22,387 bases of DNA from a virus. Lineage: Duplodnaviria; Heunggongvirae; Uroviricota; Caudoviricetes. The stretch spans positions 1-22,387 of the IMG/VR virus record IMGVR_UViG_2698536657_000021; one strand, 5' to 3'. This document shows positions 3,205 through 20,966 of the stretch, piece by piece; position 1 is the stretch's first letter; every line of letters begins with the position of its first letter. The notes beneath the pieces were generated by a model. It was not told where the DNA came from. It ran no database searches and saw only the letters and a program-made list of their open reading frames with translations. Made by a program: the position numbers and the translations under genes.

Positions 3205-3236
3205 ATTCATATAAAAGCCCCTCCGGAGAGGGGCTA
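3205..3236 (-). terminator. GC-rich hairpin terminator, possibly bidirectional
   Basis: 8-bp perfect stem AGCCCCTC (3216-3223) / GAGGGGCT (3228-3235), loop CGGA. The minus strand has TTTTAT after the stem; the plus strand has only AAAG, so termination of the 2846..3181 gene would lack a U-run. Confidence 0.45.
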
Positions 3237-3482
3237 AAGCCGCGTATCTGTATCATCATGCGCATGATGCCGGGTGCCTCCCGGTGAGTTCAGCCCGGTG
3301 CCACCAAACCAGCGCGTTTACTTTCCTGGGTATCAAAGATAACACCTAATGCACCAGTCGCCCCTCCGCTCAGGGGGATTCACCATGCCTGTTTCTTTTA
3401 ACAAACTCCCCGCAAAACAGACAACTGTCAACCGTCTGAATTGTGAGACATTTAAAATTTTCGGGGCATGACTGATACCCGG

Positions 3483-4840: not shown

Positions 4841-4917
4841 TGGCGCGTTGTACTGGATTCGAACCAGTGACCGATTGCTTAGAAGGCAATTGCTCTGTCC
4901 GGCTGAGCTAACAACGC
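4841..4917 (-). tRNA. argO: tRNA-Arg (anticodon UCU)
   Basis: Manual cloverleaf fold of the reverse complement: perfect 7-bp acceptor stem GCGTTGT/ACAACGC, D-stem GCTC/GAGC, anticodon loop CTTCTAA, T-arm ACTGG-TTCGAAT-CCAGT, discriminator G, 3' CCA. Confidence 0.85.
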
Positions 4918-4930
4918 TGAATACCGATAA

Positions 4931-5007
4931 TGGACCGCCATCGAGGACTCGAACCCCGCGCAGCCAGCTTCGAAGGCTGACGCTCTGTCCCGATGAGCTA
5001 ATGGCGG
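4931..5007 (-). tRNA. argN: tRNA-Arg (anticodon UCG)
   Basis: Manual fold: acceptor CCGCCAT/ATGGCGG, D-stem GCTC/GAGC, anticodon loop CTTCGAA, T-loop TTCGAGT, 3' CCA. Confidence 0.8.
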
Positions 5008-5016
5008 TATGTGATA

Positions 5017-5092
5017 TGGTGGCCCTTGCTGGATTTGAACCAGCGACCTGGCGATTATGAGTCGCTCGCTCTCACCACTGAGCTAAAGGGCC
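5017..5092 (-). tRNA. ileZ: tRNA with CAU anticodon, ileX/ileZ-like (lysidine tRNA-Ile2 type), 76 nt
   Basis: Reverse complement GGCCCTTTAGCTCAGTGGTGAGAGCGAGCGACTCATAATCGCCAGGTCGCTGGTTCAAATCCAGCAAGGGCCACCA closely resembles E. coli ileX; anticodon loop CTCATAA. The Ile versus Met call is by that similarity only. Confidence 0.8.
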
Positions 5093-15711: not shown

Positions 15712-15775
15712 AGGTAACAATAGTTACATGATAATGTCAACCATAGTGACATCCATTGGTAGTAACATTGGTTAC
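15712..15775. promoter_or_regulatory. immunity-region operator/promoter cluster between cro-like and the repressor gene
   Basis: Three palindromes: GTAAC-AATA-GTTAC (15714..15727), TGTCA-N7-TGACA (15735..15751), GTAAC-ATTG-GTTAC (15762..15775). Minus-strand promoter: -35 TTGACA (15740-15735) and -10 TACCTT/TTACCT (about 15717-15712), overlapped by the first operator. Confidence 0.5.
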
Positions 15776-16450
15776 ATGAACACTACCATTAGCGAACGCA
15801 TCCGAAAGCGTCGAAGAGACATAGGCCTAACCCAACAGCAGGTTGCAAAGGCTATCGGCGTCACCCGTGTATCCGTAACAAAGTGGGAAAATGGTTCAAC
15901 AAAACCGGACGGTGAGAATTTACATCTGCTGTCAAAACTGTTTTCCAAATCACCTGAATGGATTCTTTATGGGAAAGATATTCACGATAAAGTCGATGAT
16001 TTGCGATTGAATCAACTCCCCTACCTTAGTGACAACATCACCCGGTTGCCCGTTTTAACGTGGGAACAGGCTGGTTACTGGGATATGAGCTACCCAGTAA
16101 CCGAAATCCCTGGTATTAAGAATTGGGTTGATGTCATGACAAAAACATCTGAAAACTCTTTTTTATTGCGCGTTGAGGGGGATTCAATGACAAACTCTAA
16201 CGGTTTACCAACGATCCCCGACGGCTCCACGGTGTTGATCACTCCATGCTCTGGCAACATTGGGGAGATGGCGGGAAAGATTGTTCTAATCCAACTAGAA
16301 GGAATACCAACTGTAACACTGAAAAAAGTCGCAGTTGATGGCCCAAACATCTACCTACTGTCATTAAATCCGCTTTACAAGCCTATAGAACTCAATGGCC
16401 GCTACACCATTAAAGGTAAAGTCTCACAAATCCATCAATACTTAGATTGA
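15728..16450 (+). CDS. CI-type repressor (XRE-family HTH plus LexA-like S24 autopeptidase domain)
   Basis: Track ORF, 240 aa. HTH IGLTQQQVAKAIGVTRVSVTKWENG; S24 catalytic Ser in VEGDSMTN and Lys in VTLKKV. The ATG at 15776 (MNTTISERIRK...) is a plausible true start because operator copies fill 15714..15775. Confidence 0.8.
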   Translation: MIMSTIVTSIGSNIGYMNTTISERIRKRRRDIGLTQQQVAKAIGVTRVSVTKWENGSTKPDGENLHLLSKLFSKSPEWILYGKDIHDKVDDLRLNQLPYLSDNITRLPVLTWEQAGYWDMSYPVTEIPGIKNWVDVMTKTSENSFLLRVEGDSMTNSNGLPTIPDGSTVLITPCSGNIGEMAGKIVLIQLEGIPTVTLKKVAVDGPNIYLLSLNPLYKPIELNGRYTIKGKVSQIHQYLD

Positions 16451-16456
16451 CCAAAA

Positions 16457-16480
16457 GCCCGCATATATTGCGGTTTTTTC
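16457..16480 (+). terminator. intrinsic terminator after the repressor gene
   Basis: Stem CCGCA (16459-16463) / TGCGG (16469-16473) followed by TTTTTT (16474-16479). Confidence 0.5.
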
Positions 16481-16509
16481 ACACGCCTTCATGTAACTTA
16501 TGGAACCCA

Positions 16510-16538
16510 TTGACTCAACGGGTAACTTCTGTTACCTT
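16510..16538 (+). promoter_or_regulatory. putative early promoter of the ydfA-dicF-dicB operon with embedded repressor operator
   Basis: -35 TTGACT (16510-16515), 17-nt spacer, -10 TACCTT (16533-16538). The spacer/-10 contains GTAAC-TTCT-GTTAC (16522..16535), the same palindrome as in the cI-cro intergenic region. Confidence 0.45.
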
Positions 16539-16715
16539 CATTGCGTACCCACCCCGTCCCACAGAACGCCAGGCAATACCTAGAGTTACCCGGCAGTGGT
16601 CAGGGGTTAAGTAGCCAGCCCGAGGCGTATGAACATGACGGCGGGAACACTTTGTATAACAGCGCAGCAGGTTTTTAGTTCCGCTACCCCGGCGTTAAGG
16701 GGAAATGAGGTCAAC

Positions 16716-16868
16716 ATGGATACGCTCAATCTTGGCAACAACGAATCTCTGGTATGCGGCGTGTTTCCCAACCAGGACGGCACGTTTACCGCGATGACGT
16801 ATACCAGAAGCAAAACGTTTAAAACTGAAGCTGGCGCGCGTCGCTGGTTAGCAAGAAACTCTGACTAA
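16716..16868 (+). CDS. ydfA: YdfA-like small protein (DUF1391), 50 aa
   Basis: ATG at 16716 with SD GAGG and a 5-nt spacer. MDTLNLGNNESLVCGVFPNQDGTFTAMTYTRSKTFKTEAGARRWLARNSD resembles the Qin ydfA product. The upstream part of the track ORF lacks a usable SD. Confidence 0.65.
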   Translation: MDTLNLGNNESLVCGVFPNQDGTFTAMTYTRSKTFKTEAGARRWLARNSD

Positions 16869-16981
16869 TGAAGTCTGGTAGTTAAGGAATCCTCCACGGG
16901 GAGAACTGGTGCACACGCGCCGGACACAAGCAAGCATCCGGCATGCTCTTTAACAATCTGGATATCCATAACAGTAACAAT

Positions 16982-17473
16982 CTACAGATTGCCGTTCAGT
17001 TTTCTGGCCAACTCCTCAATAGATGGAGGCGATACATAATCCGGATTTTTATTCATAAGAAACTGATTTTCACAGTAGAGGCACCTGCTTTTATGAAAAA
17101 ACTCATATTCTCTAACCGGGAATGGTTGAAGTATCGATACTATCTTTTGTCCAAAACATTTTGGACAAAGATGCATGATTATGCTGCCGCCGTTCACGGT
17201 TACCTCCTTCGAGTACACAAAAGTTCCCGACTCAAGTTGGTTAAGGATATAACCTTCCGTCTGAGCCTCAAAGTTTTCAAATTCTGCAATTTTAGCTTTG
17301 AGAGAAGCATTTATTTCTTGATAAGTGCTCACCAGCTCAACGAGAGACACGCATTCGTGCTGAATAGATGCAAGCTTTGAGTTCAGTTCACCAATAGCCG
17401 CATTTACTTCAGCTTGAGTTTTTGCCTCGTTCATTAGTTTTGCAATCTGAGCGGTTTCACGAATAGCCGTCAT
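16982..17473 (-). CDS. hypothetical protein with N-terminal coiled coil and C-terminal CxxC...CxxC zinc-ribbon, AT-rich, reverse-oriented
   Basis: First ATG (17473) in track ORF 16982..17539 (track start is TTG). Low GC. MTAIRETAQIAKLMNEAKTQAEVNAAIGELNSKL... then CPKCFGQ and CLYCEN. Antisense to the expected ydfA-dicF-dicB transcript. No family recognised. Confidence 0.45.
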   Translation of the reverse strand: MTAIRETAQIAKLMNEAKTQAEVNAAIGELNSKLASIQHECVSLVELVSTYQEINASLKAKIAEFENFEAQTEGYILNQLESGTFVYSKEVTVNGGSIIMHLCPKCFGQKIVSILQPFPVREYEFFHKSRCLYCENQFLMNKNPDYVSPPSIEELARKLNGNL

Positions 17474-17486
17474 TGCTGCCGTTAAT

Positions 17487-17729
17487 TCAGCGATCACATT
17501 CAATACTCTTATTGTTGTTGGGGATATCCAGATTAACAAGATCCTTGTTGTTGGGGAATAACAGGTCCACCTCGCCTGACGTGGTTAAAAGCAGGCACAC
17601 AACACGAAAGCGCTCGGCGAAGTTAGTCTCTCTGTATATGTCGTCGTTAAATGTAATTCGATCGTGCGCTTCCGGTTGTGGCAATCCGCGAAATGGCGCG
17701 GCGGTAAGTATGGCTGGGGCTTCCTCCAT
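17487..17729 (-). CDS. hypothetical protein, 80 aa, possibly the first gene of a two-gene reverse cassette or the 5' part of a frameshifted gene
   Basis: Track ORF, ATG at 17729 with SD GGAG 5-8 nt upstream. Ends 13 nt before the ATG of the downstream ORF. The C-terminus is encoded over a 13-bp direct repeat TTGTTGTTGGGGA (17512-17524 and 17545-17557). Confidence 0.3.
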   Translation of the reverse strand: MEEAPAILTAAPFRGLPQPEAHDRITFNDDIYRETNFAERFRVVCLLLTTSGEVDLLFPNNKDLVNLDIPNNNKSIECDR

Positions 17730-17808
17730 TGCTCCAGAAAATGCACCGGGTTGTCAGGTTGACCATACACCTGAGTGACAACACCGCCACAACAACCTCT
17801 GTTATCAC

Positions 17809-17848
17809 TTTTCTGGTGATTCGGCGGAAATGGATATCCGCCATTTTT
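17809..17848 (+). ncRNA. dicF: DicF-like small RNA (cell-division inhibitor sRNA family), short variant
   Basis: Begins TTTCTGGTGA, as I recall the 5' seed of E. coli DicF; then hairpin GGCGGA-aatggata-TCCGCC (17823-17842) and ATTTTT. About 180 nt upstream of dicB, as in Qin. Exact ends uncertain. Confidence 0.55.
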
Positions 17849-18025
17849 AAAGTGTATTTTGTGATGCGGTGAATGCGGCTAAGCGCACGCGGAACAGTTA
17901 AAACAAGCGGTCTTTTACTGGCGTAACAGACATCAACTAACAATCCGGCGTTAATTGTTAACTGGTTAACGTCACCTGGAGGCACCAGGCACCACATCAC
18001 AAAATTCATTGTTGAGGACGCGATA

Positions 18026-18214
18026 ATGGAAACGTCACTACCAAACGTTAATACGTCTGAAAGGTGTTTTAATATTGGTATTCTGCTCAGTAACCGGGAG
18101 TTTACTGAGGACGCCATCAGGATGAGAAAATATGAGCCTTATCTTCTCAATGATAATTCCATACTCTCCAGAATTGCCCTTCTTGAACTTGGCATTTTCG
18201 GAGGGCAGCAGTGA
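18026..18214 (+). CDS. dicB: cell-division inhibitor DicB
   Basis: Track ORF, 62 aa. METSLPNVNTSERCFNIGILLSNREFTEDAIRMRK closely resembles E. coli DicB as I recall it. SD GAGGA upstream. Confidence 0.85.
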   Translation: METSLPNVNTSERCFNIGILLSNREFTEDAIRMRKYEPYLLNDNSILSRIALLELGIFGGQQ

Positions 18215-18399
18215 GTTCAGCGTTTGCACTGATGATGACGGTTTTTCTTATAACAGGTGAGCCACAGAATGTGATTACCGGAATTTATGCCAGTAAAGAA
18301 TCCTGCCTCCAGGCAAGAGACGAGCAAAAAATTTCTGGTGAATGCCTCCCGTTAAACAAAGTATCGCTGTACCTGAATAACGAAACACCGGCTGGATAA
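18211..18399 (+). CDS. ydfD: YdfD-like small lysis/membrane protein
   Basis: Track ORF, 62 aa. GTG start overlaps the dicB stop as GTGA. Hydrophobic N-terminus MSSAFALMMTVFLITGEP. Same position as ydfD after dicB in Qin. Confidence 0.65.
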   Translation: MSSAFALMMTVFLITGEPQNVITGIYASKESCLQARDEQKISGECLPLNKVSLYLNNETPAG

Positions 18400-18494
18400 C
18401 CCACCAGCCATATTAACGCCATACCAACGGATTAAAAATGCCAGCAATGGCAGGGATTCGTTCACCCTGAAATCTGTAATGAGGTTTAAACACA

Positions 18495-20966
18495 ATGAGT
18501 AAAATATTTATTTGCGCCGCCATTCCTGACGAACAGGCAATAAAAAACGAGGGCGCTGTTGCTGTGGCCACTGCCATTGAAGCCGGTGATGAACGTCGCG
18601 CCCGCGCAAAATTTCACTGGCAATTCCTTGAACATTATCCGGCTGCTCAGGACTGCGCTTATAAATTTCTTGTCTGTGAGGATAAACCCGGTACACACCG
18701 CCCAGCCCTCGACTCCTGGGATGCTGAATATATGCTGGAAAACCGCTGGGATGAGGAGTCTGCTTCCTTTGTCCCGGTTGAGACTGAATCAGATCCGATG
18801 AACGTCACTTTTGACAAGCTGTCCCCTGAAGTACAGAACGCTGTCATGGTTAAGTTCGACACATGTGAAAACATCACCGTTGATATGGTGATTAGCGCAC
18901 AGGAATTGTTGCAGGAAGACATGGCAACCTTCGACGGACATATCGTTGAAGCGTTGATGAAAATGCCAGAAGTTAACGCCATGTATCCGGAGATTAAACT
19001 GCATGCCATCGGGTGGGTTAAGCATAAATGTAAGCCTGGTGCCAAATGGCCAGAAATTCAGGCAGAGATGCGCATCTGGAAAAAACGTCGCGAAGGTGAA
19101 CGCAAGGAAACCGGAAAATATACGTCTGTTGTTGATCTCGCACGCACCAGAGTTAACCAGCACCTCACCGAAAACTCAGCAGCAAAAATCAACCCTGTCA
19201 CTACAGCCATTCGTCGCGAATACAGGCAGACATGGAAAACACTGGATAAAGAACTGGCCTGCGCCCTCTGGCCCGGGGATGTGGATGCAGGAAACATTGA
19301 CGGTACCATCCATCGCTGGGCTAAAAATGAGGTTATCGACAAGGATCGCGAAGACTGGAAGCGTATCTCAGCATCAATGCGCAAACAGCCTGATGCGCTT
19401 CGCTATGACCGTCAGACTATTTTCGGCCTTGTTCGTGAGCGCCCGATCGACATTTACAAAGATCCCGTTGCACTGAACAAATACATCAGCGAATACCTAA
19501 CGACAAAGGGCGTGTTTGAACATGAAGAAACAGACCAGAGCTCTGCTGATGCTATCCTGTCGTCAGCAGCACAAACTGATCCAGTGGAGACGGCGGAATC
19601 CAATTCTCAAAAAAATGAAATCCTGGTGGAAGCTGAACCATCTGTAGAGCGTGAAGGACCGTTTTATTTCGTCTTTACCGATAAGGACGGGGAAAAATAC
19701 GGCAGGGCAAACAAACTTTCTGGCCTGGACAAGGCGCTGGCTGCCGGTGGTACCGAAATCTCAAAAGAAGAATATTTTGCCCGAAAAAATGGCACATATA
19801 CGGGCTTACAGCAAAATACAGATACCGCAGAAGATTCAGAACAACCAGAGCCGGTAAAAGTTACCGCTGACGAAGTAAACAAAATTATGCAGGCAGCCAA
19901 TATCAGCCAGCCTGACACCGATAAATTGCTTGCTGCATCACGTGGTGAATTTGTTGAAGGGATTAGCGACCCGAATGATCCGAAATGGGTTAAGGGGATT
20001 GAAACCCGCGATTCTGTGAACCAGAACCAGCCCGAATCGGAACAAAACGACCAGAAAGCGGAACAAAACAGTCCAAATGCGTTACAAAACGAGCCAGAAA
20101 CGAAACTGCCTGAACCAGAAGTGCAACAAGAACCGGAAAAAGTCTGCACCGCCTGCGGTCAGACCGGCGACGGCAACTGTCCTGACTGTGGCGCGGTAAT
20201 GGGCGACGCAACATACCAGGAAACATTCGATGAAAAAAATCAGGCTGAAGTTCAGGAAGATGATTCGGAGGAAATGGAAGGCGCTGAACATCCGAACAAT
20301 GAGAATGCTGGTAACGATCAGCATCACACCAGCGATAGTGAAACTGGCGAGGCAGCAGAGCCCTTAATTGCGGAGAACGGTCATCACATTATCACATCCA
20401 CCAGCAGAGTGTGGATTCACCTGTCGGTCGACCTTGAAACGATGGGAACAAATCCTGATGCGCCAATCAACTCTATTGGCGGTAAATTTTTTGATCCGGC
20501 AACCGGAGAGATGGGGCCTGAATTCAGTAAAGCTATCGATCTGGAAACCTCCGGCGGAATCATCGACCGTAAAACAATAAAGTGGTGGGCGAAACGATCA
20601 CGCGAAGCACAATCCGCTATTTTTACCGATGAAATCTCGTTAGATGTTGCTCTCCGGCTATTCATAGAATTTATCGAAAAAAACTCCGGCGGGCGTTTTG
20701 TCCAGGTATGGGGAAATGGAGCCAACTTCGACAACGTAATTTTACGCCGTTCATATGAACGGCAGGGGATCCCCTGCCCGTGGCTTTACTACAACGATCG
20801 CGATGTACGCACAATCGTTGAACTGGGTAATGCCATTGGCTTTGATGTCAGAATGGCTATTCCATTCGAAGGCGTACCCCACAATGCGCTGGACGATGCC
20901 CGTCACCAGGCAAAACAAGTTTCAGCAATCTGGCAAAAACTGATCCCGAGTCAGGCTGATTTTTAA
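18495..20966 (+). CDS. YdfE-like large prophage protein with a C-terminal DnaQ-like (DEDDh) 3'-5' exonuclease motif set and a central zinc ribbon
   Basis: Track ORF, 823 aa, SD TGAGG upstream. C-terminal Exo I VDLETMG, Exo II WGNGANFD, Exo III HNALDDARHQ; central CTACGQTGDGNCPDCG; long acidic Q/E/N-rich linker. Follows dicB-ydfD as ydfE does in Qin. Confidence 0.75.
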   Translation: MSKIFICAAIPDEQAIKNEGAVAVATAIEAGDERRARAKFHWQFLEHYPAAQDCAYKFLVCEDKPGTHRPALDSWDAEYMLENRWDEESASFVPVETESDPMNVTFDKLSPEVQNAVMVKFDTCENITVDMVISAQELLQEDMATFDGHIVEALMKMPEVNAMYPEIKLHAIGWVKHKCKPGAKWPEIQAEMRIWKKRREGERKETGKYTSVVDLARTRVNQHLTENSAAKINPVTTAIRREYRQTWKTLDKELACALWPGDVDAGNIDGTIHRWAKNEVIDKDREDWKRISASMRKQPDALRYDRQTIFGLVRERPIDIYKDPVALNKYISEYLTTKGVFEHEETDQSSADAILSSAAQTDPVETAESNSQKNEILVEAEPSVEREGPFYFVFTDKDGEKYGRANKLSGLDKALAAGGTEISKEEYFARKNGTYTGLQQNTDTAEDSEQPEPVKVTADEVNKIMQAANISQPDTDKLLAASRGEFVEGISDPNDPKWVKGIETRDSVNQNQPESEQNDQKAEQNSPNALQNEPETKLPEPEVQQEPEKVCTACGQTGDGNCPDCGAVMGDATYQETFDEKNQAEVQEDDSEEMEGAEHPNNENAGNDQHHTSDSETGEAAEPLIAENGHHIITSTSRVWIHLSVDLETMGTNPDAPINSIGGKFFDPATGEMGPEFSKAIDLETSGGIIDRKTIKWWAKRSREAQSAIFTDEISLDVALRLFIEFIEKNSGGRFVQVWGNGANFDNVILRRSYERQGIPCPWLYYNDRDVRTIVELGNAIGFDVRMAIPFEGVPHNALDDARHQAKQVSAIWQKLIPSQADF

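What the first reader, a model, noticed from the sequence alone, without database searches (positions are those of the whole stretch)
16869..17800. Reverse-oriented AT-rich cassette between ydfA and dicF, convergent with the early-left operon
In the Qin-type arrangement ydfA is followed on the same strand by small genes and then dicF-dicB. Here the interval instead holds minus-strand coding capacity: an 80-aa ORF (17487..17729) and a 163-aa coiled-coil plus zinc-ribbon ORF (16982..17473). They are separated by 13 nt or may be one frameshifted gene. Their junction lies over a 13-bp direct repeat TTGTTGTTGGGGA (17512-17524, 17545-17557). The cassette is antisense to the transcript expected to run from the ydfA promoter into dicF/dicB, so expression of either unit could interfere with the other.
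Basis: partly seen in the sequence, partly recalled or inferred. Interest (0 to 1): 0.6.

Follow-up and report, generated by a model that had tools for sequence, protein, structure and literature searches.

The report
Rip1-family phage-defence gene with antisense-RNA leader

Summary
There is one minus-strand gene, 16982-17497 (171 aa, GTG start). It is conserved across Enterobacterales and present in 648 of 5,426 complete E. coli genomes, always as "hypothetical protein". Its family profile matches Rip1 of phage HK446 (PDB 9oox) at E=1e-22. The AlphaFold model matches that structure only (Foldseek prob 1.0, target TM 0.73). Rip1 is a single-protein abortive defence that forms a membrane pore around phage small-terminase or portal rings. 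The 80-aa ORF is spurious. Its ATG lies in a lineage-specific 4-nt insertion, and its 3' third lies in a non-coding leader. That ~115-nt leader holds the two repeats and is better conserved than the gene. It is homologous to the upstream regions of lambda and P22 sieB and of HK446 rip1. Its complement corresponds to P22's sas antisense RNA. The same 30-nt box plus hairpin precedes at least 25 unrelated small cargo families. These lie backwards next to the early-left genes of lambdoid phages. Verdict: a new member of a known defence family in a sieB-type cassette. The frameshift and two-gene ideas are rejected.

The parts
16716..16868 (+). ydfA (DUF1391), last early-left gene before the cassette
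   Evidence: Pfam DUF1391 E=1.9e-29; PGAP CDS in the 99.6% identical genome NZ_CP045712
16876..16943 (.). Backbone spacer homologous to the segment just downstream of ydfC in phages Tritos, 689R5 and PPompW; marks the left junction of the cassette (16944/16945) and shows ydfB/ydfC are missing
   Evidence: blastn 76-78% to L003/L005 2174-2240 and L004 2404-2470
16982..17497 (-). Rip1-family gene, 171 aa, GTG start: N-terminal amphipathic helical hairpin (res 2-79), beta-rich C-terminal domain with CxxC...CxxC (C111, C114, C139, C142)
17498..17524 (-). Predicted 5'UTR with SD (AAGAG). It begins with repeat copy UCCCCAACAACAA (17524-17512), at the position equivalent to the annotated P22 sieB RNA start
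   Evidence: alignment A4 with P22; P22 annotation of promoter, RNA start and CDS
17530..17538 (-). Predicted extended -10 (TGtTAATCT); TAnnnT is near-invariant across leaders, and several relatives have a perfect TGTATAAT here
   Evidence: position equivalent to P22 TAAACT inside the annotated sieB promoter
17544..17565 (+). Hairpin CUUGUUGUU-GGGG-AAUAACAGG, which forms only on the + (early-left) strand. It contains the second repeat copy (17545-17557); on the gene strand this region overlaps the -35 position
   Evidence: -8.1 kcal/mol on + strand vs -3.1 on - strand; a hairpin at this position in 52 of 81 unique leaders with 26 different complementary stems, vs 9.9% of shuffles
17567..17597 (-). 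Conserved box (gene strand TGCCTGCTTTTAACCACGTCAGGCGAGGTGG), the 5' boundary of the cassette. Interleaved inverted repeats GCCTG/CAGGC and CCAC/GTGG; function unknown
   Evidence: Homology to the Tritos backbone resumes inside it at 17587
17493..17613 (+). Template of a predicted sas-like antisense RNA, by homology to the 127-nt P22 sas RNA
   Evidence: P22 sas sequence from PMC13397905 Table 2 is the exact complement of P22 L025 2637-2763, which spans the box, the hairpin, the promoter, the 5'UTR and the first 5 nt of sieB. That P22 region aligns with the window leader
17487..17729 (-). 80-aa ORF: not a gene
   Evidence: ATG 17727-17729 lies in a window-specific 4-nt insertion (A5 cols 143-146). 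The ORF straddles the cassette junction at 17587-17604. Its 3' third is the non-coding leader. No Pfam, PHROG or PADLOC hit. Not annotated by PGAP
17810..17848 (+). Shortened dicF variant (UUUCUGGUGA seed plus terminator hairpin 17823-17842 and U-run)
   Evidence: alignment with DicF annotated in phage Tritos; terminator scan; not detected by Rfam
18026..18214 (+). dicB
   Evidence: Pfam DicB E=5.5e-33

Best explanation
The interval holds a single accessory ('moron') cassette of about 650 bp (16945 to about 17600), inserted backwards into the early-left operon of a lambdoid prophage. It takes the place of ydfB/ydfC. Its cargo is a 171-aa member of the Rip1 (ring-interacting pore 1) family. By homology, the protein is made in the lysogen and is harmless alone. 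When another phage produces its ring-shaped small terminase or portal oligomer, the C-terminal zinc-ribbon/beta domain binds the ring. The N-terminal amphipathic helices then assemble into a membrane pore that kills the cell before progeny are released (abortive infection). Expression is driven by a sieB-type leader. This has an extended -10 at 17530-17538 and a predicted RNA start near 17524, with one repeat copy at the 5' end of the mRNA. When the prophage's own early-left promoter fires, transcription on the + strand crosses the gene antisense. It should yield a sas-like RNA (about 17493-17613). In that RNA the other repeat copy sits in a GGGG-capped hairpin, next to the conserved box. I infer that this RNA pairs with the 5'UTR and start codon of the rip1-like mRNA. 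That would shut the defence off during the prophage's own lytic growth. Shown here: family membership by sequence and fold, the gene boundaries, the non-coding nature and homology of the leader, and the cassette geometry. Inferred: the defence phenotype, the trigger, the promoter and RNA start in this phage, and the antisense control.
For: Gene reality. 119 homologues of mostly 155-175 aa down to 28% identity were found, with a conserved N-terminus and four invariant Cys. phrog_1244 matches at E=1e-57. The cassette is in 648 of 5,426 complete E. coli genomes.

Slot and orientation. HK446 rip1 and lambda/P22 sieB are also reverse-oriented inside the early-left operon. In 13 homologue loci the gene is convergent with the cI-like repressor and divergent from exo. 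Across 111 box loci, upstream flanking ORFs lie on the opposite strand (149.5 kb vs 15.6 kb).

Leader. It is conserved across genera more than the CDS and carries frame-breaking indels. It aligns with the P22 and lambda sieB and HK446 rip1 upstream regions. P22 has an annotated promoter and RNA start there. The P22 sas RNA is the exact complement of that region. The hairpin shows 26 different complementary stems. It is more stable on the antisense strand in 65 of 79 leaders, and exists only on that strand in the window.
Against: Identity to characterised Rip1 proteins is only 27-30%, and nothing has been tested for this subfamily. The trigger could differ, or the defence role could be lost. 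PADLOC (2023, predating Rip1) and Pfam give no hit. I could not read the primary Rip1 paper or Ranade & Poteete 1993; the mechanisms are taken from reviews and database records. The promoter has no recognisable -35, and the consensus scan found no promoter in 16400-18300. Whole-leader folding is no better than shuffles on either strand in the window (z=0.36 and 0.07). The P22 switch depends on an internal Esc start, but no internal in-frame start is conserved in this family, so any antisense effect here would be simple repression. No intrinsic terminator follows the minus-strand gene. The early-left promoter of this prophage was not located with confidence.
Confidence: 0.72

Rival explanations
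1. Two separate minus-strand genes (80 aa and 163 aa), or one longer gene split by a frameshift.
For: Both ORFs exist. In phage PhiR49_1 one extra C fuses the region into an annotated 242-aa ORF.
Against: Homology to PhiR49_1 ends at 17604, inside the 80-aa ORF. The ATG lies in a 4-nt lineage-specific insertion. The shared upstream part has 1-2 nt indels among homologues. It precedes unrelated genes such as sieB, SfIV gp36 and others. It contains the annotated P22 sieB promoter and RNA start. The conserved protein N-terminus begins at 17497. There are no family hits for the 80-aa product.
Confidence: 0.03
2. The protein shares the Rip1 fold but does something other than pore-forming abortive defence. 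Examples are a regulatory coiled-coil/zinc-ribbon protein like HP0958/CT398, or a non-lethal exclusion factor.
Against: Only Rip1 is significant by sequence (E=1e-22; the next hit is E=0.18) and by Foldseek. The family links to HK446 rip1 in BLASTP clustering. It has the same slot, orientation and leader as HK446 rip1 and as sieB, an abortive exclusion gene.
Confidence: 0.15
3. The conserved leader is only a promoter plus a recombination boundary that lets lambdoid phages swap cargo. The antisense transcript has no regulatory role for this gene.
For: The cassette junction lies inside the box. Many genomes carry the box alone. In short leaders, the box with the bases just after it reads as -35 TTAACC, a 16-nt spacer and an extended -10 TGGTATCCT. 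No Esc-like internal start is conserved.
Against: A promoter or boundary does not explain a hairpin kept by 26 different complementary stems. Nor does it explain the hairpin's bias to the antisense strand through G-U pairs. In P22 an abundant RNA covering exactly this region exists and is functional.
Confidence: 0.3

Closest known systems
Rip1 (ring-interacting pore 1), phage HK446 and Pseudomonas JBD30-type prophages (Patel et al. 2026, Nature 651:1060; PDB 9oox)
   Same: Homologous over nearly the full length. It is a small single protein with an amphipathic helical N-terminus and a beta/zinc-ribbon C-terminus. It is prophage-encoded. HK446 rip1 is likewise reverse-oriented in the early-left operon behind the same box.
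   Different: Only 27-30% identity, forming a distinct enterobacterial subfamily (phrog_1244). It lacks the Gly-rich N-terminal extension of HK446 Rip1. Its leader has CCCCAACAAC repeats instead of CCCCTACAG. Here it sits between ydfA and dicF in a Qin/DicB-type early-left operon. Activity and trigger are untested.
sieB / esc / sas of Salmonella phage P22, and lambda sieB
   Same: Reverse-oriented exclusion gene in the early-left operon. The upstream leader is homologous: box, hairpin, -10, and two direct repeats with one at the RNA start. The complement of the P22 leader is the sas antisense RNA.
   Different: The cargo protein is unrelated to SieB. It falls in a separate BLASTP cluster and has no hydrophobic TM-like segment. 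No conserved internal Esc-type start exists. sas production in this phage is inferred, not shown.
Qin prophage ydfABC-dicF-dicB operon
   Same: ydfA, a dicF-like sRNA, dicB and DUF1482/ydfD lie in the same order and strand.
   Different: ydfB and ydfC are missing and replaced by the reverse cassette. dicF is about 19 nt shorter internally and is not recognised by Rfam.
HP0958 / CT398 coiled-coil plus zinc-ribbon proteins
   Different: No sequence similarity. Different genomic context. Foldseek does not list it among significant hits.

Membership tests
Rip1 (ring-interacting pore 1) | Sequence homology to an experimentally characterised Rip1 | tested here: met
   Profile vs PDB 9oox_L E=9.6e-23, residues 6-156. 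BLASTP 27% identity, E=2e-13. tblastn to Pseudomonas JBD30/DMS3/D3112 orf25 30% identity, E=5e-12. Same BLASTP cluster as HK446 rip1.
Rip1 (ring-interacting pore 1) | Fold: N-terminal amphipathic helices plus a C-terminal ring-contacting domain | tested here: met
Rip1 (ring-interacting pore 1) | Single-gene system carried by a prophage | tested here: met
   Lambdoid prophage at ompW. No conserved co-oriented partner gene in 13 homologue loci.
Rip1 (ring-interacting pore 1) | Activated by oligomeric phage rings (small terminase or portal); forms a 12-mer pore that permeabilises the membrane; protects by abortive infection | not testable with these tools
   Mechanism known only from the review and meeting summary and the PDB title. 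It needs phage challenge, co-expression and biochemistry.
sieB-type reverse cassette with sas antisense RNA | Gene reverse-oriented within the early-left operon near the immunity region | tested here: met
sieB-type reverse cassette with sas antisense RNA | Leader homologous to the P22 and lambda sieB upstream region (box, hairpin, -10, two repeats) | tested here: met
   Alignments A3, A4 and A6; blastn.
sieB-type reverse cassette with sas antisense RNA | A discrete antisense RNA covering the leader is made and controls translation | not testable with these tools
   Shown for P22 only. Here there is supporting structure evidence only.
sieB-type reverse cassette with sas antisense RNA | Internal in-frame start giving an Esc-like truncated inhibitor | tested here: not met
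   In-frame Met9 and Met22 of the window protein are not conserved in the family alignment.
SieB protein | Homology to lambda or P22 SieB | tested here: not met
   Separate BLASTP cluster. Maximum Kyte-Doolittle 19-residue window 1.13, so no TM-like hydrophobic segment.
DicF sRNA (RF00039), the flanking feature named in the finding | Match to the Rfam covariance model | tested here: not met
   No hit at gathering score or at E<=5. The alignment shows the 5' seed UUUCUGGUGA and the terminator arms conserved, but about 19 nt of the interior are missing.

The most novel reading that the evidence does not exclude
The box-hairpin-repeat leader may be a portable, antisense-controlled expression platform. 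On this reading, lambdoid phages use it to carry dozens of unrelated reverse-oriented accessory or defence genes (Rip1, SieB, SfIV gp36 and at least 25 dark-matter families) beside the early-left genes. The cargo is expressed in the lysogen. It is then silenced by a sas-type RNA as soon as the prophage's own early-left promoter fires, which would give built-in self-immunity. The 13-bp direct repeat would be the recognition pair: a loop-presented copy in the antisense RNA and a copy at the 5' end of the mRNA. If so, the box would be a simple sequence handle for mining new single-gene defence proteins.
Probability: 0.35. Interest if true: 0.7.

Novelty: new member of a known kind. Interest (0 to 1): 0.5.

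Why it matters
First, it gives a specific, testable function (Rip1-type pore-forming abortive defence) to a gene annotated as 'hypothetical protein'. That gene is in about 12% of complete E. coli genomes, including O157:H7 prophages. Second, Rip1, SieB and many unknown small proteins share one conserved leader whose complement corresponds to the P22 sas antisense RNA. This suggests how prophages might avoid being killed by their own late-protein sensors on induction. Third, it offers a short DNA motif for finding further reverse-oriented defence cargo in lambdoid phages. Fourth, it corrects over-extended annotations such as the 242-aa ORF in PhiR49_1.

Tried and rejected
- Rfam, at gathering score on the whole window and at E<=5 on 16400-18500, found nothing for the leader or dicF. 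The only hit in the interval was a weak STnc100 match at 17841-18058.
- Pfam and PADLOC gave no significant hit for either ORF. PHROGs gave only an unnamed family.
- The consensus promoter scan found 0 sites.
- Whole-leader MFE z-scores were not significant on either strand for the window. Only the local hairpin analysis across many leaders was informative.
- The frameshift/fusion hypothesis was rejected.
- SieB membership was rejected.
- HP0958/CT398 relatedness was rejected as fold-class similarity only.
- An Esc-like internal start was rejected.
- I did not run the count of structure pairs. MAFFT placed the 3' arms of different leader classes one column apart (A6), so I used a per-sequence hairpin test with shuffles instead.
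- Covariation in the box stems could not be tested, because my search pattern fixed those bases.
- The primary papers (Patel 2026; Ranade & Poteete 1993) are not held.
- Pfam and PADLOC searches of ten other cargo families returned nothing useful.

Full report
CONTEXT. The window is a lambdoid prophage integrated next to ompW in Shiga-toxin-type E. coli. It is 99.6% identical to NZ_CP045712 over 16600-18500. On the + strand it carries:
- a LexA-like cI repressor (15728-16450);
- ydfA/DUF1391 (16716-16868);
- a dicF-like sRNA;
- dicB (18026-18214);
- a DUF1482 gene;
- a large exonuclease, followed by xis and int.
This is the Qin/DicB-type early-left operon.

OBSERVATION. The two minus-strand ORFs and the exact 13-bp repeat are present at the stated coordinates. 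The repeat occurs twice against 0.03 expected, and 0 of 100 shuffles reach two copies. GC falls only modestly, to 0.39-0.42 in the gene against 0.49-0.54 in the flanks.

CASSETTE BOUNDARIES. Pairwise blastn resolves the interval.
- 16547-16861 is the ydfA region of phages Tritos and 689R5.
- 16876-16943 matches the spacer just after their ydfC.
- 16945-17604 matches, at 94.6%, a segment lying next to cI in phage PhiR49_1.
- 17587-18130 resumes homology to the dicF-dicB region.
So ydfB and ydfC are absent. A cassette of about 650 bp sits in the ydfC-dicF spacer.

ONE GENE, NOT TWO. A search of the protein collection gives 119 homologues from Escherichia, Salmonella, Citrobacter, Klebsiella, Enterobacter, Cedecea, Trabulsiella, Symbiopectobacterium, Arsenophonus, Edwardsiella and others. 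Most are 155-175 aa and all are unnamed. In an alignment of 30 diverse members the N-terminus MIAELxAAM is conserved. That fixes the start at GTG 17497 (171 aa), the start PGAP also uses. Invariant residues include C111, C114, C139 and C142.

The 80-aa ORF fails every test.
- PGAP does not call it.
- It has no Pfam, PHROG or PADLOC match.
- It straddles the cassette junction.
- Its ATG lies in a 4-nt insertion that Tritos, PPompW and 689R5 lack.
- Its 3' third lies in sequence with 1-2 nt indels among homologues.
The fused 242-aa ORF annotated in PhiR49_1 results from one extra C in that non-coding stretch.

WHAT THE PROTEIN IS. Pfam and PADLOC are silent. PHROGs gives phrog_1244, of unknown function (E=1e-57). 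The AlphaFold2 model is confident (mean pLDDT 89.7). It shows a helical hairpin (residues 2-79) followed by a beta-rich domain carrying the two CxxC pairs.

The family profile matches one solved protein: chain L of PDB 9oox, 'ring interacting pore 1 (Rip1)' of phage HK446. The match has E=9.6e-23 over residues 6-156, and the next hit has E=0.18. Other comparisons agree.
- BLASTP to HK446 Rip1 gives 27% identity, E=2e-13.
- Foldseek finds 9oox as the only significant PDB match (E=5e-7, probability 1.0, target-normalised TM 0.73).
- tblastn also reaches the Pseudomonas Mu-like phages JBD30, DMS3, MP38 and D3112 orf25 (30% identity, E=5e-12) and HK620 hkaP.

Rip1 was described in 2026 (Patel et al., Nature 651:1060). 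I could not read that paper. According to a review and a meeting report it works as follows.
- It is a single prophage protein that is harmless alone.
- Escaper phages carry mutations in their portal or small terminase.
- Twelve Rip1 monomers cap an 11-mer small-terminase ring.
- The N-terminal amphipathic helices form a pore that releases dye from liposomes and lyses the cell prematurely.
The window protein shares the amphipathic N-terminus (muH 0.40-0.44) and lacks any transmembrane segment, as does HK446 Rip1. I therefore file it as a divergent Rip1-family member. The defence activity and its trigger are inferred.

THE SLOT. HK446 rip1 lies backwards between N and cIII/kil. That is the slot lambda and P22 use for sieB, which is also backwards. 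In 13 loci from other genera the homologue is convergent with a cI-like repressor and divergent from exo.

THE LEADER AND THE REPEAT. The ~115 nt upstream of the start are more conserved between genera than the coding sequence, whose proteins are only 46-61% identical. On the gene strand the leader reads:
- a box, TGCCTG(T)CTTTTMACCACNTCAGGCKNGGTGG;
- the first repeat, YCCCCAACAAC;
- a -10-like TAAtCT;
- the second repeat;
- a Shine-Dalgarno sequence and the start codon.

The same architecture lies upstream of lambda sieB, P22 sieB, Hafnia phage Pocitis76 sieB, HK446 rip1, a 689R2 rip1-like gene and SfIV gp36. In the sieB and HK446 class the repeat is CCCCTACAG.

The P22 record annotates a sieB promoter and RNA start. 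Transferred through the alignment, the -10 is 17530-17535, with a TG two bases upstream. The RNA start is near 17524, the first base of the second repeat. The first repeat overlaps the -35 position. The -10 reading is supported by near-invariant TAnnnT, and by perfect TGTATAAT in several relatives.

THE ANTISENSE RNA. P22 makes sas, an antisense RNA that switches translation within sieB and lets P22 escape its own exclusion (Ranade & Poteete 1993, as summarised in PMC12197685 and PMC7067206). A 2026 RNA-seq study lists its sequence at 127 nt (PMC13397905 Table 2). That sequence is the exact complement of P22 positions 2637-2763 of locus L025. It runs from 5 nt inside sieB through the 5'UTR, the promoter, the hairpin and the box. 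Only about 36 nt of sas can pair with the mRNA. The rest is a structured handle. The window's + strand at about 17493-17613 is the homologous template.

Across 81 unique leaders recovered with the box as a search pattern, a hairpin starts within 0-4 nt of the box.
- 52 have a Watson-Crick stem of at least 5 bp, against 9.9% of shuffles.
- The stems come in 26 different complementary versions.
- The hairpin segment is more stable on the antisense strand in 65 of 79 leaders (mean z -2.03 against -1.68).
- In the window it exists only on that strand: CUUGUUGUU-GGGG-AAUAACAGG, 17544-17565, -8.1 against -3.1 kcal/mol.

One copy sits in a GGGG-capped hairpin of the antisense RNA. The other is the 5' end of the mRNA. 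This is the loop-to-5'-end geometry used by antisense systems such as IS10 RNA-OUT/RNA-IN (my knowledge). That role is inference.

No Esc-like internal start is conserved here, so I expect simple repression rather than a translational switch.

A WIDER PATTERN. Clustering the first ORF downstream gives these groups:
- the Rip1 family as the largest (24 sequences, including the window, HK446 and 689R2);
- the SfIV gp36 family (16);
- SieB (13);
- at least 25 further small families.
The ten of these families that I searched returned only marginal Pfam or PADLOC hits, and no clear assignment.

Upstream flanking ORFs lie overwhelmingly on the opposite strand, 149.5 kb against 15.6 kb. There are two leader classes.
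- Long leaders have two repeats, as in the window.
- Short leaders have TATNCT directly after the box. Together these read as -35 TTAACC, a 16-nt spacer and an extended -10. A hairpin follows whose 3' arm carries the SD.
The cassette junction in the window lies inside the box. Tritos keeps a degenerate outer fragment of it. About 1,170 further E. coli genomes carry only the box end. The box's own function remains unexplained.

VERDICT. The finding is real but mis-parsed. It is a Rip1-family defence gene in a sieB-type, probably antisense-controlled, reverse cassette. The gene is a new and very common member of a family published in 2026. The generality of the leader is the part most worth following up.

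Noticed in passing
window 17810-17848 (+): The dicF here is a shortened variant. The 5' UUUCUGGUGA and the terminator arms GGCGG/CCGCC are kept. About 19 nt of the canonical interior (UAUCAGUUUUACUCCGUGACUGCUCUG) are replaced by AAAUGGAUAU. Rfam's DicF model does not detect it even at E<=5. Its targets may differ from those of canonical DicF.
   Followed up: partly
window 17567-17597 and loci L026-L145: A ~30-nt box (GCCTG(T)CTTTTMACCACNTCAGGCKNGGTGG) followed by a hairpin precedes at least 25 unrelated small cargo ORFs in lambdoid phage contigs. These mostly diverge from the neighbouring early-left genes. There are two leader classes, a long two-repeat class and a short class where the box with the bases just after it looks like an extended -10 promoter. 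The box has interleaved inverted repeats (GCCTG/CAGGC, CCAC/GTGG) compatible with a pseudoknot, but my search fixed those bases, so covariation is untested.
   Followed up: partly
L002 3038-3766 (phage PhiR49_1, PV340568): The annotated 242-aa GTG-start CDS runs through the non-coding promoter/leader and is over-extended. The conserved protein starts 71 codons later.
   Followed up: yes
L008 5698-5934 (Trabulsiella odontotermitis); L133 boxes at 2933 and 3720: In L008 a truncated paralogue (78 aa, N-terminal coiled-coil only) sits just upstream of the full gene, with only half a leader between them. In L133 two boxes lie 787 nt apart, after a Rip1-like gene. Cassettes apparently duplicate or stack.
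   Followed up: no
L004 1429-1505 (PPompW_14040) vs L042, L088, L107: The related ompW prophage PPompW carries the box in the same orientation. It is followed by a premature-stop version of a 66-aa CxxC protein (MNTIKFSCPECGG*) that is intact in other contigs. This is a decayed cargo at a different position (before ydfC).
   Followed up: no
window 17640-17800: A block upstream of dicF is strongly conserved with Tritos, PPompW and 689R5 but contains a 4-nt indel, so it is non-coding on both strands. It is probably part of the dicF precursor. The 101-aa + strand ORF and the 156-aa minus-strand ORF overlapping it are likely spurious.
   Followed up: partly
window 3205-3417 (-) and 17841-18058 (+): There is a strong Rfam STnc100 match (131.5 bits) in the late region. 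A weak sub-threshold copy (33 bits, E=7e-5) lies between dicF and dicB. The two share the motif CACCNGGAGGCACCNGGCACC.
   Followed up: no
window 4841-5092 (-): Three tRNA genes (Arg-tct, Arg-tcg, Met-cat) are clustered in the prophage.
   Followed up: no
window 16920-16944: No intrinsic terminator follows the minus-strand gene. The only hairpin (GCCGGA...TCCGGC) lacks a U-run on the minus strand. PhiR49_1 has a hairpin plus T-run at the equivalent place. Minus-strand transcripts may therefore run antisense into ydfA.
   Followed up: no
window 16510-16538 (+): TTGACT, a 17-nt spacer and TACCTT lie between the cI terminator (16459-16473) and ydfA. This is a candidate for the early-left promoter, below the threshold of the consensus scan.
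   Followed up: no
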